Below are positions 443 through 61,784 of a stretch of 64,000 nt of DNA, piece by piece. Origin of the DNA: an uncultured Mycoplasmatota bacterium (GTDB lineage: Bacteria > Bacillota_I > Bacilli_A > RF39 > UBA660); NCBI GenBank assembly GCA_947649365.1, contig CANSRH010000009.1:1417-65416 (forward strand), in the 5' to 3' direction. Position 1 is the stretch's first letter, and every line of letters starts with the position of its first letter. Below the pieces are notes generated by a model. That model was not told the origin of the DNA. It worked only from the letters and a program-made list of their open reading frames with translations, and made no database searches. The position numbers and the translations under genes were made by a program.

Positions 443-1066
443 TTACATTTGTTCTTCTCTTTCCTTTAATATTTCTTTAATCTTACCTTTCAAGCGTTGA
501 ATTGCATTGTCTATTTGTTTAGGGGTCTTATGAAGAATTTCCGCAATTTCATGATAAGACATACCAGAAATCAATAACTTATAAACCTCATATTCATTTG
601 TAGATAAAGTCTTTTCAATAAAAGAAATTAACTCATCCAACGTTTCATCCTTAGTAATATTTAACAAAGGATCATTATCACTATGATCACTAATAATATC
701 TTTTAAAGGGATCTCATATTGTTCATAAACATGATCCAAAGAAAGACTTTCCAAAAGAATACGATTTTTCACTCTACCTGCTTTATGAATAATATTCTGT
801 AATCTTCTCTCCACACAAAGCGTAATAAAAGTAGCCATACTTGTATTTTTATCTTCCTTATAAGAATTAAGTGCATCGGAAAAACCTACCAAAGCTTCTT
901 GATACAAATCTTTATATTCAAAACCATACTTCTTCGCATTAAAAGCATATTTTTTGATAACTATATCAATAATATACTTATACTTTTCAAACAAAATATC
1001 CTTTACCTCTTCACTCTCGCAAATCATAGAATAAAGTTCACTATCTGAATACACATCATAATTCAT
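443..1066 (-). CDS. sigH: RNA polymerase sigma factor, SigH-like
   Basis: Region-2-like DLYQEALVGFSDALNSYKEDKNTSMATFITLCVERR and C-terminal HTH MSYHEIAEILHKTPKQIDNAIQRLKGKI. It sits directly downstream of rlmB, as in B. subtilis (yacO-yacP-sigH). Confidence 0.75.
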   Translation of the reverse strand: MNYDVYSDSELYSMICESEEVKDILFEKYKYIIDIVIKKYAFNAKKYGFEYKDLYQEALVGFSDALNSYKEDKNTSMATFITLCVERRLQNIIHKAGRVKNRILLESLSLDHVYEQYEIPLKDIISDHSDNDPLLNITKDETLDELISFIEKTLSTNEYEVYKLLISGMSYHEIAEILHKTPKQIDNAIQRLKGKIKEILKEREEQM

Positions 1067-2262: not shown

Positions 2263-3108
2263 CTATTTTATCACTTTTATTACTCCTGTTTTTTCCAATT
2301 TTATTACTTCCTCCTTGTAATTAAGAGCCATACCAATCACAAAAATATAAGCCAAAAAATAAACCCAAAGCATCAACATCACAATATTCGCAAGGCCACC
2401 ATAAAAAACAGCGTAATTAGCAAAATGATTAATATAATAGGAATACCCAGCTGTAACAATAACCCACATAATTGTCGTAAATATTGCCCCAAAATTGACA
2501 TTCGCACTCGATACCTTTCGATCTGGCGCCATCGTATACAAAATTTTAATAAAGCAAAACATAATAAACCAAGCAATAGGACCTTTAAGCAAGCGAAAGG
2601 CAAAAACCAAAGTATTCGTAATAGCATTATTCATATTCACATACTTAATCATATCAATAATGTTTTGTCCAAACAAAGGAACAATTAAAATAAAGAGAAA
2701 CAAAAAAACAATGAGAATGGTCATCATCATAGCTTTTATTCTACGATGCAAAAAATCAGAATCAGGAATACCATAAATCGCATTGGAAGTAACAATAATG
2801 GATGCCGCTCCATTACTAGCAATATGATAACCTATAAGCAAAGTAAAGAAAAAACGGAAATCAACATTAGAGACTGAAATCATAGGTACAATCAAACTAG
2901 CCACTTCACTCCCAAAAGCTTTTCCAATAAAATTACTAATAAAATCCAAAGATAAATTTAAGAATGATGCTCCATAGGTAATCAAAGTAACAATAGGAAC
3001 AACAGACAAAACAAAAAAGAAGGCCAGTTGTCCAGGAAGAACTGCCATCTCTGGTCTAGAAACTACTTGAATTACTTTCTCTACAAATTCTTTAAATCGT
3101 TTCTTCAT
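2263..3108 (-). CDS. YihY/BrkB (virulence factor BrkB) family membrane protein
   Basis: N-terminal LPGQLAFFFVLSVVPIV signature and multiple TM helices typical of the family. Confidence 0.8.
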   Translation of the reverse strand: MKKRFKEFVEKVIQVVSRPEMAVLPGQLAFFFVLSVVPIVTLITYGASFLNLSLDFISNFIGKAFGSEVASLIVPMISVSNVDFRFFFTLLIGYHIASNGAASIIVTSNAIYGIPDSDFLHRRIKAMMMTILIVFLFLFILIVPLFGQNIIDMIKYVNMNNAITNTLVFAFRLLKGPIAWFIMFCFIKILYTMAPDRKVSSANVNFGAIFTTIMWVIVTAGYSYYINHFANYAVFYGGLANIVMLMLWVYFLAYIFVIGMALNYKEEVIKLEKTGVIKVIK

Positions 3109-5195
3109 TACTTTTCCTCTTTTTTATTCTCTTTTTGTTTTTTAACCTCTTCTACCGCTTCATTAATAGCATCCTCAATGGTTTTAATATCATCCTCTAT
3201 CATACTATAACCAATAGCAGCTCCTTGTTCATAAGGCAAACGTTTAAACTCCTTATTCAATTTATGAATATAACTAATAATTTGTTTCGTTTGGTATCCA
3301 ATCAAATACAAAACAAACTCATTCCCATCTGTCCTTATAATATCACTATTATCCAGTTGTGTTTTCACTAAAATATTAGCGGCCGCTTTGATTTGCTCAT
3401 CGCCCTTTTCATACCCCATGGTATCATTAATATATTGCAAATTATTCAAATCAATCACAATTACTGCTTGTGGATAAATACGATTTTGACTCCAATTTTC
3501 TAAATTTTCAGTCAAATAATTACGATTTTTCAAAGAAGTCAACTGATCAATATACTTTAACTTATCCTCTTTTTTTATCTTTTTAGAAAGTTTTACCTTT
3601 TTTGTCAAACGATACACATACAAGAAAACAAGGACAAACACAATCAAAATATACATAAAATAACGAGCAATCGTTCCTGTGATCGTACCAGCTTTAAAAG
3701 TCAAATCGTAATTATAAATTCCTTTATTGATAGTCACATGAGAATCTTTCATATTCACAAACTTAGTAAATAATTTATTAAATGTTTCATTAGTAGAAAT
3801 TCGAAATGAATAATCCATATTTAATACACTAGAATAACGAATCGTATAATCGTGATACATTCCATGTTGATTTGCTGCATATACATTAGCATCTACAATA
3901 ATAATCTGTTCATCTTTGATTAATTTTTCTAATTCTTTATCTGTTTCATAGGTTTTGATAGTGGCTTTCAAATTTGTTTTTAAATAAGAATACAAAGCTG
4001 AATTTTTTAATACATACACTTCTTCATCTGAAATAGCTTTTAAAGAATGAACAACCATCGGATTCTTTTTAGATACAAGCACATGATAAGAAAGACCAAT
4101 GCCAGAAGGAACAGAATTAAAATTAGCATCTATATCGTAATAACCAAAATAAAGATGAAGTTTATTATTTTTAATAGCATTCTCAAACTTTGTTAAATTT
4201 TTGTATTTTGTAAAAGTTAATTCTGTATTACTAAAATCTGAAAACTCTTTCAAATATTGCGCTATGATACCACCATAATTACCTCCGCTTAAAATTTCAT
4301 AAGGACTATTATTCATAAAACCATATTCATAAGAAACTGCTCGCATGGCATCCACATCTTTTAAAGGAATTTCTAAAGATTTTATATACAAATTAAACAT
4401 ATGATCTTTATAAGAATCATGAAATTGCTCTTCCCAAGAATGAAAATATTTTTCTAAAATGGTCCCAAGAACTACATTATCACTTTTATTGATTTTATAA
4501 TAATAAGGCAAATCGCTATAGTGGCTAACAACAGAATAATCGTTTTTCAAAATTTCTTCCATATAAAGAGAAAGAGGAACAACTATATATTGAATATCAT
4601 TTTGCTTTTGAAAATGATCTAACATTTCTTCTCTTGTTTCAAAGGATTGCAATTGTAAACTAGAAGGATTTATATAAGACTGAACATAAGAAAAATGTTC
4701 TTTCAAAACTCCAATTTTTTGTGTTGTCAAATAAGTCACATTACTTATGTACTCTTGTTTTTTACCAAGTAGCACAAAATGTTCTTCATAAAAAACAAAC
4801 TCTGAGTCCGTTACACTCGTTCCAGCAGTAAAGGAAAGACCTTTAGGATTCTCTCCTAAATTATAAGTAACAGGATTCGTTTTTAATTCATGTTCCTTAG
4901 AAAAATCATCTAAAAAATCAAAGAACACACCTGTTCCATTTTCTCCAAACAAATGAACATTATTTAAAATACTAATATTTTGAACTACACTAGAATTTTC
5001 TGCTAAATAACGTTTTTCTTTTGCTGTTAAACGATTAGGATTGGTAAAATAAAAATACAAGAAAAGACCCAAAGCAACAACAAAAATAAAAATAACCATT
5101 GTAATTAAAATCGATTTTTTCTTACTTTTCATACTATCACTACTCACTATCCGCATCAATTGGGGTATTGTTATTCCAAACCAAACCACTGCCAT
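3108..5195 (-). CDS. membrane protein with large extracytoplasmic domain and C-terminal degenerate GGDEF domain
   Basis: Two TM segments flank a roughly 450-aa domain. The C-terminus reads LTSLKNRNYL...IDLNNLQYINDTMGYEKGD...RTDGNEF. The likely true start is MKSKKK at 5132. Confidence 0.75.
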   Translation of the reverse strand: MAVVWFGITIPQLMRIVSSDSMKSKKKSILITMVIFIFVVALGLFLYFYFTNPNRLTAKEKRYLAENSSVVQNISILNNVHLFGENGTGVFFDFLDDFSKEHELKTNPVTYNLGENPKGLSFTAGTSVTDSEFVFYEEHFVLLGKKQEYISNVTYLTTQKIGVLKEHFSYVQSYINPSSLQLQSFETREEMLDHFQKQNDIQYIVVPLSLYMEEILKNDYSVVSHYSDLPYYYKINKSDNVVLGTILEKYFHSWEEQFHDSYKDHMFNLYIKSLEIPLKDVDAMRAVSYEYGFMNNSPYEILSGGNYGGIIAQYLKEFSDFSNTELTFTKYKNLTKFENAIKNNKLHLYFGYYDIDANFNSVPSGIGLSYHVLVSKKNPMVVHSLKAISDEEVYVLKNSALYSYLKTNLKATIKTYETDKELEKLIKDEQIIIVDANVYAANQHGMYHDYTIRYSSVLNMDYSFRISTNETFNKLFTKFVNMKDSHVTINKGIYNYDLTFKAGTITGTIARYFMYILIVFVLVFLYVYRLTKKVKLSKKIKKEDKLKYIDQLTSLKNRNYLTENLENWSQNRIYPQAVIVIDLNNLQYINDTMGYEKGDEQIKAAANILVKTQLDNSDIIRTDGNEFVLYLIGYQTKQIISYIHKLNKEFKRLPYEQGAAIGYSMIEDDIKTIEDAINEAVEEVKKQKENKKEEK

Positions 5196-54598: not shown

Positions 54599-55774
54599 TT
54601 AGTTTATTTCAATTTTATATGGATTTTCTTGACTTCCATCTCCATCAGAAATATTTACATTAGAGGATAAATATAAAGCAGGAAATACACTATATTGATT
54701 TAAATATACCCCAGATTCTCCCACTCCAAATGAAGAAAGACAATAAGCATTCAATCCACTTGGCATTAAAGTCCATAAAGTTGTACTAGGAAGTAACCAA
54801 TTATTCTTACCGCAATCATTTATACTATAAGAAGTTCCTAAAGTTTCATTTAAACACACTTCTCTGCTTTGAGATTCACCTCCGCTTGTTGCAAAACCAT
54901 AATCACTTGGATACAACAATGCTATTTTACCTATCCATGTTTTAGGCCTTCCATTTAACGCTTCTCCTCTTTCTCTAGTATAGAATTCGCTTGTTGTAAT
55001 ATTCTTTGATGAACTTGCTCCTAAATTCCACACAATACTAGCTAGCATATCTTGAGAATTGCTTGATAATTCTTTATAAAAATCTATATTTAAAATTTGG
55101 GTATTTAAACTACTGTTTATCCAATTATTTGTAGAAGATGAACTACTTCTTCCACTCCAATAATAATCCCCTATACTCTCATTCCTTACTATCTTAACAA
55201 GTCTTCCAACATTACCTTCACTATCAGTAATATTATTCATAACCCCAATAATCCGCCATAACTCTCCATTGAATTCTACATAATTATTAGGATTCGCACC
55301 AACATATCTCAAATTATTATCAGCAGTTTCGTCATATACTAGTTCTGTACTATTATTAGCTATACTTATCAAATAATCGGAAGCATTATTTGAAGTATTT
55401 GTAACAAAAGACAATGTACAAGTTGTTTTACTATTAGATAAATTACTTACAAAAACACCCCATTTTTCATTATCCCATTCTCCTATGGCTTCATTATCAC
55501 AAACTACACTATCAAAATTATATCCTGCATTCTTTTTGGGTATAGTAGTTGAAGATGCGCCATCTAATAAAACAGCAAATTCTATATCTCCTTTGCTAAA
55601 ATGTGGCACTTTTCCTCTCAACACATTAAATGTTTTTTCTTCTTTATATAACGCATAACTTCTGTACAAAATTATACTTCCTATAAGAATTAGAATTCCT
55701 ATTATGGAGCCTACTATTATTTTCCTTTGTTTTCTCATTCCCTCAAACTTTTTTAATTTCATAGATTTTCCCAA
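54599..55774 (-). CDS. N-terminally anchored secreted protein
   Basis: TM anchor IIVGSIIGILILIGSIILYRSYALYKE. The C-terminus reads ...VFPALYLSSNVNISDGDGSQENPYKIE. Confidence 0.55.
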   Translation of the reverse strand: MGKSMKLKKFEGMRKQRKIIVGSIIGILILIGSIILYRSYALYKEEKTFNVLRGKVPHFSKGDIEFAVLLDGASSTTIPKKNAGYNFDSVVCDNEAIGEWDNEKWGVFVSNLSNSKTTCTLSFVTNTSNNASDYLISIANNSTELVYDETADNNLRYVGANPNNYVEFNGELWRIIGVMNNITDSEGNVGRLVKIVRNESIGDYYWSGRSSSSSTNNWINSSLNTQILNIDFYKELSSNSQDMLASIVWNLGASSSKNITTSEFYTRERGEALNGRPKTWIGKIALLYPSDYGFATSGGESQSREVCLNETLGTSYSINDCGKNNWLLPSTTLWTLMPSGLNAYCLSSFGVGESGVYLNQYSVFPALYLSSNVNISDGDGSQENPYKIEIN

Positions 55775-55888
55775 CTTTCATGTGGAATATCTCCACAGAT
55801 AATAATTACATTATACTCCGTATTTCTCCACATATCAAGAAATAAATTCGGAAAAATACGACAATTGCAAATAAGAGGTGCAAAAAAC

Positions 55889-56128
55889 ATGATTGGAAAA
55901 ATACTTAAAACTATGCGCAGAGAAAGTAAATTAACTCAAGAACAATTAGCAGAACAAGCCTATTTAGGAAGAACTACATTAAGTGATTATGAACGAATGA
56001 AAACAGACATAAATTTTGAAACTATAGAACGTATTGCAAACATTTGCGGATACGAAATATTATTTATCAATAAAAAAGACAAAACAAAAATTTTATCTTC
56101 AAACAATATTGAACGTAAAGAAATATAA
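55889..56128 (+). CDS. XRE-family HTH transcriptional regulator
   Basis: LTQEQLAEQAYLGRTTLSDYERMK. Divergent from 54599..55774. Confidence 0.8.
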   Translation: MIGKILKTMRRESKLTQEQLAEQAYLGRTTLSDYERMKTDINFETIERIANICGYEILFINKKDKTKILSSNNIERKEI

Positions 56129-56737: not shown

Positions 56738-57517
56738 TTATCTTGGATAACCCACATACATAAGTCCATTACTAATTAAACCACCCATCCCATCGCTACC
56801 ATACTTCGTTTTTTCAAGCAAGGTAAACAAATCAACCATCTTACTTCTTTCCGTTAACGATAAAGTAGTTGCAATAATAGCTGGATCCAAACAATGAATG
56901 TTCACTCTTTTAGGACTTGATGCAAAATTTGCACCCGCTTTAATCAGTTCCTCATAATTACTTTGACATGCTCCAGCAATAATAACTAATTTTTCATGAC
57001 TTTTTTCATATCTTCGACATTCACGAACCGCTTTAATAAAATTTTCTGTATTCTTATAATTTCGCAGATCATGAACATCACCCTTTTTAGAATAATAAGC
57101 ATCATGTCCTGTAATAATCACAATATCCGGTTTATATTCTACAAGTAAATCCCTAATTTTAGTAGCAATCTCAACTTCGCTTATTTTTTTACCAATAGCT
57201 AAAATATTATGCTTCTTGTAATAATCCAAACAGCGTTTTAGATATTCAGCATCTCCATCAATATGCAATACTTTTCCTGGCAAATAAAAAAACTCACTTC
57301 GATCCAAAAAGTCATCTTCCAAAGAATCGCTATCATCTTCTAAACGTTCTTGTTCTTCTTTTGTAGCTATCACCAAATCTTCTTTCTCACTATCTGCATA
57401 CAATCGAACATCCATTCCCTTTAAATAACAAATATTGCCTTTAATATTCATTACTTTAAACAAAGTGTCATGATCATAACTCTTCCGCGTGACTAAGTCT
57501 CCTTTTTTAATAGGCAT
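56738..57517 (-). CDS. yabG: sporulation-specific protease YabG
   Basis: MPIKKGDLVTRKSYDHDTLFKV... and IITGHDAY, GACQS motifs. Confidence 0.88.
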   Translation of the reverse strand: MPIKKGDLVTRKSYDHDTLFKVMNIKGNICYLKGMDVRLYADSEKEDLVIATKEEQERLEDDSDSLEDDFLDRSEFFYLPGKVLHIDGDAEYLKRCLDYYKKHNILAIGKKISEVEIATKIRDLLVEYKPDIVIITGHDAYYSKKGDVHDLRNYKNTENFIKAVRECRRYEKSHEKLVIIAGACQSNYEELIKAGANFASSPKRVNIHCLDPAIIATTLSLTERSKMVDLFTLLEKTKYGSDGMGGLISNGLMYVGYPR

Positions 57518-57650: not shown

Positions 57651-60278
57651 TTACTTCATTTGCCTTAATTTTTTCATTAACTCTACTGAAAAATTTTTTT
57701 CTACTTCATAATTATGAAGCACCTCTTCGATTGCTATCTCAATTCTACTATCTTGCATAAAAGGATATTTTGTTTTCATTTTTTTTACAAAAATATTATT
57801 AATATGCATAAGAATATTTAAAGATTCGTCACTATCTGGATCAATTTTATATTTATTTGCAAGAAAATTTAGAATAATAGCTTCAATCTTAAATTGACAA
57901 AAATAGTTTATATTAATACCTTCATCTTGAACATAACTATATATTACCTCACATATAATATTTTCTAATTCTTCAGAAGAAAATACTTCTCCATACAAAG
58001 CGTAAAAACGATTATATAATTCAATTTTTAAATTAATTGCTTTTTGATTCTCCATAACTTTTTGATGGTCTATTAATAGTGCTCTTTTCTTACTTATCGA
58101 TTGACTTTGGTCTTCTTCTAGTTTTATTTTTTGCTTTTTAGAAATAGTTTGTGGTTCTGTGTCTTTTACTTTTGATTTTATTTTCTCTTGTGATTCAATA
58201 GAAATACTAGTTGTATCCTTTAAATTGCTTTGCAATTTTGATTTCGTTAATTGATTTGTTCTATTTTCCAATAAACTATGAATCCTTTTGCAAATATTAT
58301 AATAACTATAAAAATAATAATTTTCTTTTTTACCTTTTGGTATTTCTGGCCATTCTAAAACCATATCTAAATTATTACCATGACGAGTATAAAGAATTTC
58401 CAGTTGATGTTTATTTAAATAAGTAATAGTCCACAACAAATCTTCCCTTGTTACTTCAGTTAATATATTTTTAGAATTGCTTTTGAATCCTCTTTTGGTC
58501 TTTTTCTTTGCTTCATCAGAAACCTCATTTACAATAACAGACGTTTTTATTTCATTATAAACAGAATCTGAAAAAACAAACGATTCTTCCAACTTCTTAA
58601 TAGATGTCTTTTTAGATGCTTCTTGAAGTTCTTTTTTTGCTATTAAAACTCGATCAATAAACGCATAACTTTGATAATAATTATTCCTATAAAAAGAAAG
58701 TGGTTTATCATCAAAATTTTCTATTTCCGTCCATGAAATAGTTCTATCTAAATCTTTTCCATGACGAAGATAAATGCTTTTTTGAATATTTTTAGAAATT
58801 TTTGGAAGAGCATAAAGTAAATCTTCTTTTGAATATTTATCTATTACACCTTTTTTATTTTCTCTTAAAATTATCCCTAACATAACTTGTTCTAACGCTT
58901 TAATTGCCTTTTGATACATTGCATAATAAGCACCATAACTTTTATTTTCTTGAAATTTATTATATTTATCCAAATTTTTTCCATGACGCAAATAAATTAC
59001 TTTTTGATACTGACTCGGTAATTTTTCAACATATGCATTTAATTGTTCAAAAGATAGAGAAGAATAAATTCCTCTTAGAGATTTTGGATGAATAATAACA
59101 GGCTTTTTTTCTAGTTCCTCTTTTAATTTTCGATAAGCCAGATATAATACAGATAAATTATCGTTTAATTCATTATAAGAAAGAAGATCTTTTCCATGAC
59201 GCATATATAAAATATTTTGAAGTTTAAAACTCAAATTTTGAACAGATCGATTAATTTTTTCTAAAGTATATTCTTCATAACGAAATCGTAAAAAATGTTT
59301 TTTACAATATTTTTTTATTTTTTTAGAGATATTTTTTTCATGTTTGTTCTTTAAATGAAAATAATAAATAAATATTTCTCGTAAATTATTTTCAATTAAT
59401 TCAAGATACTTATTCTCATAATTAGACCCCCCCCCCGACAAGGGCTTAGTATAGATATCATTTTCTCTCAACACAATTCCATTATGTTTTGTATAAAAGG
59501 TAATTTCATGTTTTGGAAAAAAGGAAATAATCATTCTAAATACTTCAGAAGTTAATTTTTCATGTATAGAATGTACATCAAATCTTCTGTAACGATTTTG
59601 ATATTCTTCTACTTCACTAATATGTTTATCTAACCTTATACGTAGTTTTTCTAAGGCTTTTATTTCAATTCTACTAACATAACTCTGAGAGATTCCTAAA
59701 ATTGTTGCCACTTCTCTTTGCGTTAAAATATCTCCGTTAAACCCATATAAGTAAGAAATCACATTATACTCATACTCATTCAGAATTTCCTTCATAGCAC
59801 CTCTAATTTTAGCATTATATCTTTTATTTATAATATGTTCTTCAAAAGCAGCATTAGAATCTTCCAATATATCTAATACCATCAAACCTTTTCCTTCATC
59901 ATCCGTAATAATTGACTCTTCTAAACAAATATCATTAGTGTATTTATTAATTTTTCTTAAAGCCATCAATATTTCATTTGTAATTACACGACCTGCATAA
60001 GTAGAAAATTGTACTTCTTTTTCCAATTTAAATGTATCAACACTTTTTATCAAACCAAATGTAGCAGCAGACATCATATCATCATAATAACATGCTAAAA
60101 CAGAATACTTTTTCATTGTATCGCCAACTTTTTTTATTGCAAATCGAAGATTGTGCTCAATTAGTTTTTCTCTAGCCTTCATATCTCCATTTTTAAATTT
60201 TTCATAATAATTTAAAAATTCTTCTTCTGTTAAATTTATAGGTAAATCTTTTAAATTTCTAAATAATTCTTTGTACAT
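57651..60278 (-). CDS. 875-aa sigma-70-family protein: complete sporulation-type sigma core plus tandem region-4-like repeats
   Basis: Residues 1-215 read GDMKAREKLIEHNLRFAIKKV, FGLIKSVDTF, TYAGRVITNEILMALRK and TQREVATILGISQSYVSRIE. Downstream are four repeats containing (I/L)Y(L/M/T)RHG(K/N).L. Confidence 0.8.
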   Translation of the reverse strand: MYKELFRNLKDLPINLTEEEFLNYYEKFKNGDMKAREKLIEHNLRFAIKKVGDTMKKYSVLACYYDDMMSAATFGLIKSVDTFKLEKEVQFSTYAGRVITNEILMALRKINKYTNDICLEESIITDDEGKGLMVLDILEDSNAAFEEHIINKRYNAKIRGAMKEILNEYEYNVISYLYGFNGDILTQREVATILGISQSYVSRIEIKALEKLRIRLDKHISEVEEYQNRYRRFDVHSIHEKLTSEVFRMIISFFPKHEITFYTKHNGIVLRENDIYTKPLSGGGSNYENKYLELIENNLREIFIYYFHLKNKHEKNISKKIKKYCKKHFLRFRYEEYTLEKINRSVQNLSFKLQNILYMRHGKDLLSYNELNDNLSVLYLAYRKLKEELEKKPVIIHPKSLRGIYSSLSFEQLNAYVEKLPSQYQKVIYLRHGKNLDKYNKFQENKSYGAYYAMYQKAIKALEQVMLGIILRENKKGVIDKYSKEDLLYALPKISKNIQKSIYLRHGKDLDRTISWTEIENFDDKPLSFYRNNYYQSYAFIDRVLIAKKELQEASKKTSIKKLEESFVFSDSVYNEIKTSVIVNEVSDEAKKKTKRGFKSNSKNILTEVTREDLLWTITYLNKHQLEILYTRHGNNLDMVLEWPEIPKGKKENYYFYSYYNICKRIHSLLENRTNQLTKSKLQSNLKDTTSISIESQEKIKSKVKDTEPQTISKKQKIKLEEDQSQSISKKRALLIDHQKVMENQKAINLKIELYNRFYALYGEVFSSEELENIICEVIYSYVQDEGININYFCQFKIEAIILNFLANKYKIDPDSDESLNILMHINNIFVKKMKTKYPFMQDSRIEIAIEEVLHNYEVEKNFSVELMKKLRQMK
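59427..59436 (-). repeat. G10 homopolymer inside the giant sigma gene
   Basis: Ten consecutive C on the plus strand. Read on the minus strand as TCG GGG GGG GGG T (Ser-Gly-Gly-Gly). Confidence 0.95.
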
Positions 60279-60360
60279 TTTGCATCACTTTCTATTTAAT
60301 AAATATTTAATTAAACAACGTATTGCTTATTCTATCATAAAAAATAGATAAAAAATTATA

Positions 60361-60993
60361 CTAATATTTAAAATCTTTCATTTCTCTTTGCATTTTAAGA
60401 AGTAAATCATCAATTTCTTCGACCTCAGAAGAAGCATCCTCTAATTGAAAATCAGATAATATTCGATTCAATCTTTCCATTAACGTCTCTTCTCTATTAT
60501 AATTAGGAGGATAAAATCCCAACTTCCCATTTAAAATATCTATGGCAGGCTTTACATGCTCCTCTTTTATTCCATCACAAGTTTCTATAAAAACCTGGTG
60601 CTCCACTAAACTACAAATAATATTATCATCTTCTATAATCACAAAATCTGTTATTTCGGGATGAGCATTTAAATAAGCATGGATTTCCAATTCTCTTTCC
60701 ATAAAAATATTATCTGTTCTAATAAAAGGCGTATAGCCATAAATATCAATACCCCTTTCTATTAAAGAACAAATATAACGCTTATAACAAAAAGAAGTTT
60801 CTAAATGAATTGAACCTTGCACCAAAGCATTATCTCTTTTTTGAGAAGAAACAACTACTTTTGAACCAGTAACATCTATAACTCGTTTCAATTCTTTTAC
60901 AAACTGTTCTTTTACAAACTGTTCTTTTACATAAATACCATCCAAAGAATTATCATTGACTACACCATCAAGATCTAAAAAAATCACTTTCAT
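60361..60993 (-). CDS. HAD-like phosphatase-domain protein
   Basis: VIFLDLDGVVN (DxDG) at the N-terminus. Confidence 0.6.
   Translation of the reverse strand: MKVIFLDLDGVVNDNSLDGIYVKEQFVKEQFVKELKRVIDVTGSKVVVSSQKRDNALVQGSIHLETSFCYKRYICSLIERGIDIYGYTPFIRTDNIFMERELEIHAYLNAHPEITDFVIIEDDNIICSLVEHQVFIETCDGIKEEHVKPAIDILNGKLGFYPPNYNREETLMERLNRILSDFQLEDASSEVEEIDDLLLKMQREMKDFKY
60894..60930. repeat. 15-bp tandem repeat (about 2.5 copies) in the HAD-like gene
   Basis: CTTTTACAAACTGTT repeated, giving VKEQFVKEQFVKE in the protein. Confidence 0.9.
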
Positions 60994-61784
60994 ACAATCG
61001 ATCCTTTATATTGATTCACTAACTTATAAAAATCACACTTTTTAATTTCTTCTGCTCGAACAATTTCACTATATCCTAATTTATTCAATATCTCCTTTAC
61101 TTTCTCCCAATCATAACCATTCAAATTATTCTTTAATGTTTTTCTTTTATTTTGAAAAGCATCATGAACAAATTGCAAGAAAAACTCCTTATCTTCTACT
61201 TCCATCTGGTCTTTTTTTCTTAAACGTATCAAAGCACTATCTACATTAGGAACAGGAACAAAATGATTTCGATCCACTAAAAACAAAAGTTCTGCATCAT
61301 AAAGATAAGAAATAGCCAAAGTAAAAGCATTGTAATCCCGAGTAGATGCCTCTGCTGTAATTCGTTTTGCAACCTCTTTTTGTACAAGCAAAACAATTTC
61401 TTTTGGTTTTTCTTCCAATTCTATTAACTTAGTAATAATGGGAGAAGTAATATAATAAGGAATATTTGCTACCACATAAATAGTTTGAAAAGGATAGTTT
61501 TTACTATCTTCTTTTATATCTCGTTTTAAAAAATCATCAAAAATAACATGACTTCTCTTTGTATTATACTTATCCAAATAACTTTTCATTCTTGGGTCAA
61601 TTTCATAGCATAACAAATAAGAGTCTTTTTTATACAAATATTCTGTTAAAGCTCCCATTCCTGGACCGATTTCAATCACCAAATCATCCGATTGACAAAC
61701 AATCGAACCCGCAATTCTCTCCAAAATTTCTTGTGTTTTTAAAAAATTTTGTCCATATTTTTTTTTCGCTTTTATATATTCCAC
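60990..61784 (-). CDS. rsmA: 16S rRNA (adenine1518/1519-N6)-dimethyltransferase
   Basis: YGQNFL and VIEIGPGMGALT. Confidence 0.95.
   Translation of the reverse strand: MEYIKAKKKYGQNFLKTQEILERIAGSIVCQSDDLVIEIGPGMGALTEYLYKKDSYLLCYEIDPRMKSYLDKYNTKRSHVIFDDFLKRDIKEDSKNYPFQTIYVVANIPYYITSPIITKLIELEEKPKEIVLLVQKEVAKRITAEASTRDYNAFTLAISYLYDAELLFLVDRNHFVPVPNVDSALIRLRKKDQMEVEDKEFFLQFVHDAFQNKRKTLKNNLNGYDWEKVKEILNKLGYSEIVRAEEIKKCDFYKLVNQYKGSIV

What the first reader, a model, noticed from the sequence alone, without database searches (positions are those of the whole stretch)
57651..60278. A giant 875-aa sigma factor combines a complete sporulation-type sigma core with four to five tandem region-4-like modules
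Residues 1-215 form a full group-3 sigma factor: region 2 (GDMKAREKLIEHNLRFAIKKV, FGLIKSVDTF, TYAGRVITNEILMALRK) and region 4 (LYGFNGDILTQREVATILGISQSYVSRIE). The protein then continues for 660 aa. Within 58269..59276 there are four repeats, spaced 70-130 aa apart, with the pattern L......Q..(I/L)Y(L/M/T)RHG(K/N).L........(W/Y).E(I/L). The instances are ILYMRHGKDLLSYNELN, VIYLRHGKNLDKYNKFQ, SIYLRHGKDLDRTISWTEIE and ILYTRHGNNLDMVLEWPEIP. A weaker fifth copy, ITFYTKHNGIVL, sits around residue 260. The pattern echoes the start of sigma region 4 (L..rE..vi.lRyG.d....t..Ei). The gene sits between rsmA and yabG, a slot that has no sigma gene in B. subtilis. I know of no described sigma factor with multiple sigma-4-like modules. 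Possible roles include auto-inhibition (an anti-sigma mimic), multivalent -35 or activator binding, or scaffolding.
Basis: partly seen in the sequence, partly recalled or inferred. Interest (0 to 1): 0.8.

Follow-up and report, generated by a model that had tools for sequence, protein, structure and literature searches.

The report
Giant sigma factor with sigma-4-derived repeats
This is a real, intact, selectively maintained gene for an RNA polymerase sigma factor whose 650-residue tail is built from degenerate copies of its own promoter-binding domain. It belongs to a family of more than 400 sequence clusters that I found described in no database or paper I could search.

Summary
ORF 57651..60278 (-) encodes 875 aa. 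Residues 1-219 are a complete SigK/SigE-like sigma core that scores below every curated cutoff and has no room for a pro-sequence.

The tail has one degenerate and four clear 62-68 aa repeats, basic spacers and an orphan 130-aa helical end domain (CTD). The repeats derive from sigma region 4:
- Profile-profile comparison gives 95% probability (P 3.5e-8; score 38.3 against 8.1 +/- 1.6 for 200 shuffled profiles).
- An AlphaFold model (pLDDT 92.8) finds almost only sigma-4 structures in the PDB.
- The first helix of the helix-turn-helix is replaced by a conserved loop.

The gene is not a fusion artefact. Relatives at 77% and 62% identity keep one ORF in the same rsmA-HAD-sigma-yabG slot, and the repeats evolve as slowly as the sigma core or more slowly.

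The repeat profile finds 424 clusters among 1.84 billion proteins. They carry up to about 18 copies, are fused to SigK/E-like or RpoD-like cores, and end in the CTD or a true sigma-4-like domain.

No Pfam, NCBIfam or PDB entry covers the repeat unit or the CTD, and I found no paper on them. Function is inferred: most likely a protein-binding regulatory arm projecting from sigma-4. Upstream DNA binding is the main rival.

The parts
57651..60278 (-). Whole gene, 875 codons plus stop
   Evidence: ORF list. The N-terminus matches the orthologs P0002 and P0003. Both are syntenic single ORFs.
59940..60194 (-). Sigma domain 2 (aa 29-113; regions 2.1-2.4)
   Evidence: Pfam Sigma70_r2, 33.7 bits against a cutoff of 24. 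The SigK/SigE NCBIfam models align through it. Session HMM E 7e-31.
59622..59813 (-). Canonical sigma domain 4 with intact HTH (aa 156-219)
   Evidence: Pfam Sigma70_r4, 45.7 bits against a cutoff of 24.1. Session HMM E 5e-23.
59283..59579 (-). Repeat 0 / 'link' domain (aa 234-332).
   Evidence: hhalign against the repeat profile: 73% probability, P 3e-5, 42 columns. Conserved in 22 family members. dN/dS 0.17-0.22. AF2 pLDDT about 70.
59112..59282 (-). Repeat 1 (aa 333-389, ILYMRHGKDL)
   Evidence: Repeat HMM E 1e-15.
58881..59069 (-). Repeat 2 (aa 404-466, VIYLRHGKNL). This is the unit modelled by AlphaFold.
   Evidence: Repeat HMM E 1e-24. AF2 pLDDT 92.8 with three helices. Foldseek returns sigma-4. 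dN/dS 0.09-0.14.
58644..58847 (-). Repeat 3 (aa 478-545, SIYLRHGKDL)
   Evidence: Repeat HMM E 1.5e-23.
58467..58643 (-). Basic spacer (aa 546-604). It marks where the close relatives carry one more repeat. It also contains the A5 run that is frameshifted in P0001.
   Evidence: Alignment shows a clean 70-codon gap against P0002/P0003. A5 run at about 58500-58505. Net charge +5.
58269..58466 (-). Repeat 4 (aa 605-670, ILYTRHGNNL)
   Evidence: Repeat HMM E 1e-24. dN/dS 0.09-0.18.
58044..58268 (-). K/S-rich spacer running into a long predicted helix (aa 671-745)
   Evidence: Least constrained segment: 41-47% identity, dN/dS 0.5-0.8. Net charge +5 and no aromatic residues. Long helix in the AF2 model.
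57654..58043 (-). Orphan C-terminal helical domain, CTD (aa 746-875)
   Evidence: Session HMM E 4e-50. AF2 pLDDT about 80 with five helices. In L001 it also occurs on sigma factors without repeats and twice in a sigma-less protein. No Pfam or PDB match.
60329..60337 (-). Extended -10-like motif TGaTAGAAT in the 82-bp gap upstream. This is a motif match only.
   Evidence: Read from the sequence. The promoter scan shows no enrichment over shuffles.
60361..60993 (-). HAD_SAK_2-family gene. It lies next to the sigma gene in all three syntenic loci and overlaps rsmA by 4 nt.
   Evidence: Pfam PF18143, 57.9 bits. Same arrangement in L003 and L009.

Best explanation
The gene encodes a working alternative sigma factor of the SigK/SigE branch, fused to a long C-terminal arm.

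Shown here:
- The core has intact sigma-2 and sigma-4 domains.
- The arm consists of one degenerate and four clear three-helix modules, basic spacers and an orphan helical end domain (CTD).
- The modules descend from sigma region 4. They keep its first two helices (region 4.1) and its last long helix. The first HTH helix is replaced by an ordered loop carrying a conserved L...(W/F/Y)-P motif.
- The arm is conserved at least as strongly as the core.

Inferred:
- The core binds RNA polymerase and reads promoters in the ordinary way.
- The arm starts at the C-terminus of sigma-4. From what is known of holoenzyme structures, sigma-4 sits on the beta-flap at the -35 element, so the arm would project upstream of the promoter.
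- The modules have lost the HTH scaffold helix, are much less basic than true sigma-4, and carry tyrosines where sigma-4 carries its DNA-reading residues. They therefore more likely bind proteins than read bases.
- The CTD is the likely docking or oligomerisation end.
- The arm would then be a multivalent regulatory and targeting arm. It could tether the holoenzyme to partners or gate sigma activity in cis, as the C-terminal extensions of some ECF sigma factors do.

My confidence that the anatomy and the sigma-4 ancestry are right is about 0.9. My confidence in the protein-binding regulatory-arm mechanism is about 0.35.
For: - Core: Pfam r2 and r4 pass their gathering scores. SigK and SigE models align over aa 10-219.
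- Sigma-4 ancestry of the modules: hhalign 95%, P 3.5e-8, 58 columns, against controls of 0.6% and a maximum score of 15.1 in 200 shuffles. AF2 pLDDT 92.8 with helices at 9-17, 21-31 and 47-66 and a loop at 32-46. Foldseek returns sigma-4 domains in the PDB and in the viral library. Summed Pfam Sigma70_r4/r4_2 scores pass gathering in repeat-rich relatives, but only for profile positions 1-29.
- An evolutionary continuum: P0047, P0010 and P0034 carry extra intact sigma-4 copies in the same position.
- Selection: dN/dS is 0.09-0.33 for repeats 2-4 and 0.17-0.22 for repeat 0, against 0.22-0.34 for the sigma core and 0.5-0.8 for most spacer comparisons. Each repeat position has its own ortholog across proteins.
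- Against base reading: repeats have net charge +1.7 and pI 8.8, against +4.8 and 9.7 for true sigma-4, and are 15-17% aromatic.
- Modularity: the same arm is attached to RpoD-like and SigK/E-like cores.
- CTD as an interaction end: it occurs on sigma factors without repeats and as a CTD-CTD protein beside them.
Against: - No experiment and no partner protein is known.
- The whole-tail model was poor (pLDDT 51.6), so how the modules pack is unknown.
- The sister subfamily ends in a true sigma-4-like HTH. The spacers are basic and the last helix keeps an A-I-K-K-L-type basic patch. All three leave DNA binding open.
- Foldseek E-values are weak (0.26-2) because the domain is short. The argument rests on the uniformity of the hits and on the profile comparison.
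- Expression is not shown.
Confidence: 0.5

Rival explanations
1. Extended promoter reader. The tail lies along the DNA upstream of -35. The modules and basic spacers bind or wrap AT-rich upstream DNA, like built-in UP-element or activator contacts. The number of modules sets the reach.
For: - The modules descend from a DNA-binding domain.
- The tail is net basic, about +25 over aa 223-875, and the spacers have pI 9.6-10.3.
- The last helix keeps lysines at alignment columns 65, 66 and 68.
- In the sister subfamily the array ends in a sigma-4-like domain with an intact HTH (hhalign 97.6% to sigma-4; architectures).
- All loci come from genomes of 25-29% GC.
Against: - The first HTH helix is missing.
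- The repeats themselves are only weakly basic, and the positions aligned with the start of the sigma-4 recognition helix are mostly tyrosines.
- The window protein ends in an acidic CTD (pI 5.3), not an HTH.
Confidence: 0.25
2. Cis auto-inhibition or pro-protein. The tail or the CTD folds back on sigma-2/sigma-4 and keeps the factor inactive. A signal, a partner or a protease, for example the YabG protease encoded next door, then releases it. This would replace the N-terminal pro-sequence of SigK/SigE.
For: - The core aligns to SigK/SigE from residue 10-11 at model positions 24-36, so there is no room for a pro-sequence.
- yabG is adjacent in all three syntenic loci.
- The CTD is an autonomous acidic helical domain.
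- A stand-alone CTD-CTD protein sits beside CTD-bearing sigma factors.
- From general knowledge, cis regulation by a C-terminal extension is established for ECF41/42-type sigma factors.
Against: - From general knowledge, rsmA-yabG adjacency is ancestral (it is found in Bacillus subtilis), so the sigma gene may simply have landed there.
- Other family members sit at unrelated loci: tad-ruvA and rpsB.
- hhalign of the CTD against sigma-2 or sigma-4 shows no convincing relation.
- Simple auto-inhibition does not explain position-specific conservation of 4-18 modules.
Confidence: 0.15
3. Artefact or decaying gene. Either two genes were joined by a frameshift, or the tail is junk low-complexity sequence.
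For: - A 99%-identical metagenomic copy (P0001) is truncated by a -1 frameshift in an A5 run.
- The gene has lower GC (23-27%) than its neighbours (29-32%).
- Some 'stand-alone' arrays elsewhere are frameshift splits (L013).
Against: - Single intact ORFs occur in the window and in relatives at 77% and 62% identity in the same locus.
- dN/dS in the repeats is as low as 0.09.
- The repeat model is confident.
- Hundreds of clusters share the architecture.
Confidence: 0.02

Closest known systems
Sporulation sigma factors SigK and SigE (group 3, Firmicutes)
   Same: These are the best-matching curated families for aa 10-219, aligned end to end through regions 2-4. The host is a spore former: yabG, spoVG, veg, yabP and a SigH-like gene lie in the window.
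   Different: Scores are far below the curated cutoffs (169 against 252; 164 against 299; 132 against 339). There is no room for an N-terminal pro-sequence (inferred from the alignment start). A 650-aa tail is added.
ECF sigma factors with fused C-terminal regulatory extensions (ECF41/ECF42 type; from general knowledge)
   Same: A sigma-70-family factor that carries its own extra domain after sigma-4, where that domain modulates activity in cis.
   Different: Those are group 4 factors with SnoaL-like or TPR-type extensions of about 100-200 aa. Here a SigK/E-like (elsewhere RpoD-like) core carries 1-18 sigma-4-derived modules plus an orphan CTD. No regulatory role has been shown here.
Canonical sigma region 4 (Pfam Sigma70_r4 / Sigma70_r4_2; structures such as 3vep, 2h27, 5fgm)
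   Same: The repeat matches in profile (95%) and in fold (TM 0.6-0.7). Shared motif: L..L...E..vi.LR(Y/H)G followed by a final A.xKL helix.
   Different: The first HTH helix is replaced by a 15-residue loop with a conserved W/F-P. The repeats are less basic. Single copies score below Pfam gathering.
Sigma factors with extra intact sigma-4 copies, or with one repeat plus a terminal sigma-4-like domain
   Same: The SigK/E-like or RpoD-like core is followed by sigma-4-related modules. P0025/P0027 carry one copy of the same repeat type.
   Different: They end in a true HTH (s4c) instead of the CTD and lack the 'link' domain. None is named or described by any source.
MzaA, the large sigma-70-family protein of the MZA anti-phage system
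   Same: An unusually large sigma-70-family protein. There is a weak sigma-2 match (PADLOC E 5.5e-5; NCBIfam hits for relatives).
   Different: The extension is N-terminal and unrelated. Only the generic sigma core matches, and the window has no defence-gene context.

Membership tests
Sigma-70 family | Sigma-2 domain above the Pfam gathering score | tested here: met
   PF04542, 33.7 bits against 24
Sigma-70 family | Sigma-4 domain with HTH above the Pfam gathering score | tested here: met
   PF04545, 45.7 bits against 24.1, aa 166-213
Sigma-70 family | Binds core RNA polymerase and directs promoter-specific initiation | not testable with these tools
   Needs biochemistry
SigK (sporulation sigma K) | Score at or above the curated NCBIfam cutoff | tested here: not met
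   TIGR02846: 163.9 against 298.65. NF004471: 168.7 against 252
SigK / SigE | Cleavable N-terminal pro-sequence (about 20-27 aa; general knowledge) | tested here: not met
   The alignment starts at protein residue 10-11, at model positions 24-36, so only about 10 residues precede the mature-type core. This is inferred from the alignment.
SigE (sporulation sigma E) | Score at or above the curated NCBIfam cutoff | tested here: not met
   NF006158: 132 against 339. TIGR02835: 124.8 against 348.6
ECF (group 4) sigma factors with a C-terminal extension | An ECF-type core as the best match | tested here: not met
   Only the generic TIGR02937 superfamily model passes (69.5 bits). The best matches are SigK/SigE at 125-169 bits.
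Sigma region 4 domain (applied to each repeat) | Single-domain Pfam score above gathering | tested here: not met
   6 of 49 repeats hit Sigma70_r4_2 and 5 of 49 hit Sigma70_r4. The listed hit scores 14.9 bits against a gathering score of 25.7, and the best E-values are 0.002-0.006.
Sigma region 4 domain (applied to each repeat) | Profile-level homology over the whole domain | tested here: met
   hhalign 95%, P 3.5e-8, 58 columns. Controls.
Sigma region 4 domain (applied to each repeat) | Sigma-4 fold | tested here: met
   AF2 pLDDT 92.8. Almost all of the top 50 PDB matches are sigma-4, probability up to 0.98, TM 0.5-0.7, although E is only 0.26-2.
Sigma region 4 domain (applied to each repeat) | Intact helix-turn-helix (two consecutive helices forming the DNA-reading unit) | tested here: not met
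   DSSP shows a loop at residues 32-46, where sigma-4 has the first HTH helix.

The most novel reading that the evidence does not exclude
Arrays of sigma-4-derived modules may be an unrecognised class of transcription-machinery component in very low-GC spore-forming Firmicutes. In this reading each module keeps the helices that sigma-4 uses for protein contacts (beta-flap tip, activators, anti-sigma factors). An array of 4-18 modules would then act as a multivalent adaptor. It could cluster RNA polymerases or regulators, or capture nascent RNA or upstream DNA, giving a form of promoter control with no described precedent. The CTD would define a paralog network: sigma-CTD, sigma-repeats-CTD and CTD-CTD proteins encoded side by side.
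Probability: 0.15. Interest if true: 0.85.

Novelty: new variant of a known kind. Interest (0 to 1): 0.68.

Why it matters
Sigma factors are among the best-studied bacterial proteins. Their known elaborations are N-terminal regions, pro-sequences, and the C-terminal sensor domains of some ECF factors. A family in which sigma-4 has been duplicated up to about 18 times, stripped of its HTH, and kept under strong purifying selection points to a function of the sigma-4 scaffold beyond -35 recognition.

The same arm is attached to housekeeping-like and sporulation-like cores. It also occurs as separate genes beside sigma genes. It therefore looks like an autonomous module that acts with RNA polymerase.

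The family offers a clean experimental handle, full-length against tail-less protein. It also supplies two unannotated domain families (the repeat and the CTD) for Pfam-type curation. At present these proteins are recognised only as generic sigma-70-family factors.

Tried and rejected
- Whole-tail AlphaFold (aa 220-875, six-sequence alignment) gave pLDDT 51.6. Its Foldseek hits were meaningless. Only the CTD (about 80) and repeat 0 (about 70) were moderately confident.
- CTD as a degenerate sigma-2. There were weak hints only: hhalign 13%, P 0.002; low-probability sigma-2 Foldseek hits; a PDB profile hit to a sigma factor fragment at E 0.14. I did not accept this.
- CTD related to the N-terminal extensions of the RpoD-like members: no.
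- A database search with the CTD profile returned one 73-aa fragment, which was uninformative.
- The repeat profile against PDB sequences with HMMER gave no sigma hit. Only profile-profile and fold comparison see the relation.
- Phage, plasmid or defence origin. No tblastn hit in phage or plasmid collections. No relative in IMG/VR (one search failed for lack of a conserved stretch). PADLOC gave only a generic sigma-2 match to MzaA.
- 'Stand-alone' arrays as a Rosetta-stone test. P0236 is a frameshift split inside a repeat. P0130 is a separate gene overlapping the end of a 1008-aa sigma gene by 8 nt. P0242 is truly separate and lies in a sporulation neighbourhood.
- Recent duplication. The DNA copies are only about 70% identical over 64 nt, so the repeats are old.
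- Promoter and terminator scans gave no enrichment and no terminator.
- Source organism. An exact look-up found nothing. The genome scan found one MAG only. No paper mentions the sample accessions.
- Five literature searches found nothing describing such proteins. One search was a malformed query. Absence from that library is not proof of absence.
Full report
**1. The observation**

The ORF at 57651..60278 on the minus strand is real and encodes 875 aa.

Pfam places Sigma70_r2 at aa 64-110 and Sigma70_r4 at aa 166-213, both above their gathering scores. It finds nothing else apart from a weak Sigma70_r4_2 match at aa 411-434.

NCBIfam aligns aa 10-219 end to end with SigK (169 and 164 bits) and SigE (132 and 125 bits). 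All are well under the curated cutoffs of 252-349 bits. The alignment begins at protein residue 10-11 and model positions 24-36. There is therefore no room for the N-terminal pro-sequence that SigK and SigE carry; this is my inference from the alignment.

The neighbours, all on the minus strand, are:
- tatD
- a small protein with no family match, which I took as yabE-like from its position
- rsmA (60990..61784)
- a HAD_SAK_2-family gene (60361..60993)
- the sigma gene
- yabG (56738..57517)
- veg
- spoVG

The window also holds yabP and a SigH-like gene, so the host is a spore-forming Firmicute with 28.5% GC.

**2. The repeats**

The motif [ILV][YF]x[RK]H[GN] occurs four times, at aa 357, 428, 502 and 629.

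An HMM built from only these four copies recovers the same unit in eight relatives. It finds 4 to 12 copies per protein, with domain E-values down to about 1e-31. After iteration the units are 62-68 aa long and lie at aa 333-389, 404-466, 478-545 and 605-670.

Each position has its own ortholog in other proteins. For example, the 'EDLLYALPK' unit is always third. The copies are therefore old and individually specialised. At DNA level they are only about 70% identical over 64 nt.

The close relatives P0002 and P0003 have one more unit. The window protein lacks exactly that unit, through a clean 70-codon gap.

It matches the first 42 columns of the repeat profile at 73% probability, so it is a degenerate copy. 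The count of 'four to five' is fair.

**3. Are the repeats sigma-4-like?**

Three independent lines say yes.

(a) Profile-profile comparison. The 49-repeat alignment A1 against 67 true sigma-4 sequences from the same protein set gives 95% probability, P 3.5e-8, over 58 columns spanning the whole domain. The same repeat profile against sigma-2 gives 0.6%. Against 200 column-shuffled sigma-4 profiles it scores 8.1 +/- 1.6 (maximum 15.1), compared with 38.3 for the real one.

(b) Structure. AlphaFold on one repeat with A1 as its alignment gives pLDDT 92.8. It shows helices at residues 9-17, 21-31 and 47-66 and an ordered loop at 32-46. Foldseek against the PDB returns almost only sigma region 4 domains among its top 50: SigD4, SigA r4, SigE r4 and SigR r4. 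Probabilities reach 0.98 and TM scores are 0.5-0.7. E-values are only 0.26-2 because the domain is short. The named matches in the viral library are also sigma-70 region 4 proteins.

(c) Pfam. Among the single repeats, the families hit by most members are Sigma70_r4_2 (6 of 49) and Sigma70_r4 (5 of 49), all below gathering. In repeat-rich relatives the summed scores pass gathering (for example 52, 48 and 42 bits). Only profile positions 1-29, the region 4.1 half, are matched.

The difference from true sigma-4 is clear. The first helix of the HTH is replaced by a loop with a conserved L...(W/F/Y)-P. The positions aligned with the start of the recognition helix are mostly tyrosines. The repeats are also much less basic: net +1.7 and pI 8.8, against +4.8 and 9.7.

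Some relatives carry extra intact sigma-4 copies in the same place (P0047, P0010, P0034). This gives a plausible path from duplication to degeneration.

**4. Not an artefact**

P0002 (77% identity, 946 aa) and P0003 (62%, 942 aa) are single ORFs in the same rsmA-HAD-sigma-yabG-veg locus.

Nei-Gojobori estimates of dN/dS:

| Segment | dN/dS |
|---|---|
| Repeats 2-4 | 0.09-0.33 |
| Repeat 1 | 0.53-0.73 |
| Repeat 0 | 0.17-0.22 |
| CTD | 0.24-0.39 |
| Sigma core | 0.22-0.34 |
| Spacers | 0.5-0.8 in five of six comparisons, 0.27 in one |

The repeats are mostly more conserved in amino-acid identity than the sigma core: 76-86% against 72% for the closer pair.

A 99%-identical metagenomic fragment (P0001) is truncated by loss of one A in an A5 run. 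That may be an assembly error or a real variant.

**5. The rest of the tail**

The last 130 aa (CTD) form a helical domain modelled at pLDDT about 80. It has no Pfam or PDB relative.

The CTD is separable. In one MAG contig (L001), five paralogs lie in tandem between a Tad-pilus operon and ruvAB:
- two with a SigK/E-like core, repeats and a CTD (P0005, P0004)
- two with an RpoD-like core and a CTD but no repeats (one of them split into two ORFs)
- one protein that is just two CTDs

P0006, P0009 and P0047 sit in the same tadB/C-sigma-ruvA position.

**6. The family**

The repeat profile finds 424 representatives of 50%-identity clusters at E <= 1e-3 among 1.84 billion proteins. Of these, 199 reach E <= 1e-10. 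Proteins carry up to 18 matched stretches and reach 1862 aa.

Among the best 150:
- 68 have a sigma core N-terminal to the array. Of these, 46 are RpoD-like, 12 are SigK/E-like, and 10 had no sigma-4 call.
- The arrays end in the CTD (23), in a true sigma-4-like HTH domain (57), or in neither. Many of the last group are fragments.

Some arrays are separate genes. P0130 overlaps the end of a 1008-aa sigma gene by 8 nt. P0242 lies among sporulation genes. P0236 is merely a frameshift split.

All loci I could read have 25-29% GC. I found no relatives in phage, plasmid or IMG/VR collections. The species-level genome scan found only the one MAG, using two peptide patterns. No source gives these proteins a name, apart from one generic JGI label ('RNA polymerase sporulation-specific sigma factor', P0020) on a ~500-aa relative. 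Five literature searches found nothing.

**7. Mechanism**

Shown:
- an intact sigma core
- a conserved arm of sigma-4-derived modules lacking the first HTH helix
- an autonomous end domain
- modular reuse of the arm with two classes of sigma core

Inferred:
- The core works as an ordinary sigma factor.
- The arm leaves sigma-4 where that domain sits on the beta-flap at -35 (general knowledge of holoenzyme structures), so it points upstream.
- The lost HTH helix, the low charge and the aromatic surface favour protein binding over base reading.
- The CTD-only and CTD-CTD paralogs suggest that the CTD mediates docking or oligomerisation.

I therefore favour a multivalent regulatory or targeting arm (about 0.35). 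The rivals are upstream DNA binding (0.25) and cis auto-inhibition or processing, possibly by YabG (0.15). The remainder is unassigned. An artefact is excluded (0.02).

**8. Comparison and verdict**

By test, the protein is a member of the sigma-70 family. By test, it is not a SigK or SigE equivalog and not an ECF factor.

The closest functional analogy is the ECF sigma factors with C-terminal regulatory extensions, but the domains involved are unrelated. The repeat is homologous to sigma-4 but fails the intact-HTH criterion.

I rate it a new variant of a known kind, with interest 0.68. Three amendments apply: the modules are HTH-less, an orphan CTD completes the tail, and the protein represents a sizeable undescribed family rather than a singleton.

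Noticed in passing
L001 7547-17662 (MAG contig CAYSFO010000006.1): Five tandem paralogs lie between a Tad-pilus operon and ruvAB. Two are sigma-repeat-CTD proteins. Two are RpoD-like sigma-CTD proteins without repeats (one split into 265 and 320 aa). One is a 327-aa protein made of two CTDs with no sigma domain. The contig has 27.8% GC but its record is labelled Muribaculaceae, which looks like a binning or labelling error.
   Followed up: partly
window 58495-58510: There is an A5 run inside the spacer between repeats 3 and 4. A 99%-identical metagenomic copy (P0001, 605 aa) has one A fewer, which shifts the frame and truncates the protein after repeat 3. This may be an assembly error or a natural on/off variant.
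   Followed up: partly
window 60361-60993 (-): A HAD_SAK_2-family gene (the HAD domain of 'Swiss Army Knife' RNA repair proteins) overlaps rsmA by 4 nt. It accompanies the sigma gene in all three syntenic loci, so the two genes sit together in what is the rsmA-yabG junction in Bacillus subtilis.
   Followed up: partly
window 54599-55774 (-): A 391-aa protein with an N-terminal hydrophobic segment has no Pfam or PADLOC match. It lies between yabP and spoVG, next to a divergently oriented 87-aa XRE-type HTH gene (55865-56128, +) that matches PADLOC 'control protein' and RmrA-type HTH models.
   Followed up: partly
window 443-1066 (-): A second sigma gene in the window, SigH-like, scores below all curated cutoffs (best 111.5 bits against 212). 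It sits next to rlmB, as in Bacillus.
   Followed up: partly
L015 2982-7725; L013 3924-7282: Repeat arrays also occur as separate ORFs just after giant sigma genes. In L015 the array is a real second gene with its own GGGGG ribosome-binding site and an 8-nt overlap. In L013 the split is a frameshift inside a repeat.
   Followed up: yes
L008 1009-3489; L015 2315-6008: RpoD-like members of the subfamily ending in the sigma-4-like domain lie beside the rpsB-tsf and frr translation-factor cluster. In Bacillus subtilis sigD occupies the position upstream of rpsB (from memory).
   Followed up: no
L007 5706-9479: The ~500-aa type (sigma, one repeat and a terminal sigma-4-like domain; P0025) sits about 1 kb downstream of an integrase, relaxase and sortase block. 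This suggests it lies at the edge of an integrative element.
   Followed up: no
window 3108-5195 (-): A 695-aa GGDEF-domain protein (diguanylate cyclase type), upstream of pcrA.
   Followed up: no
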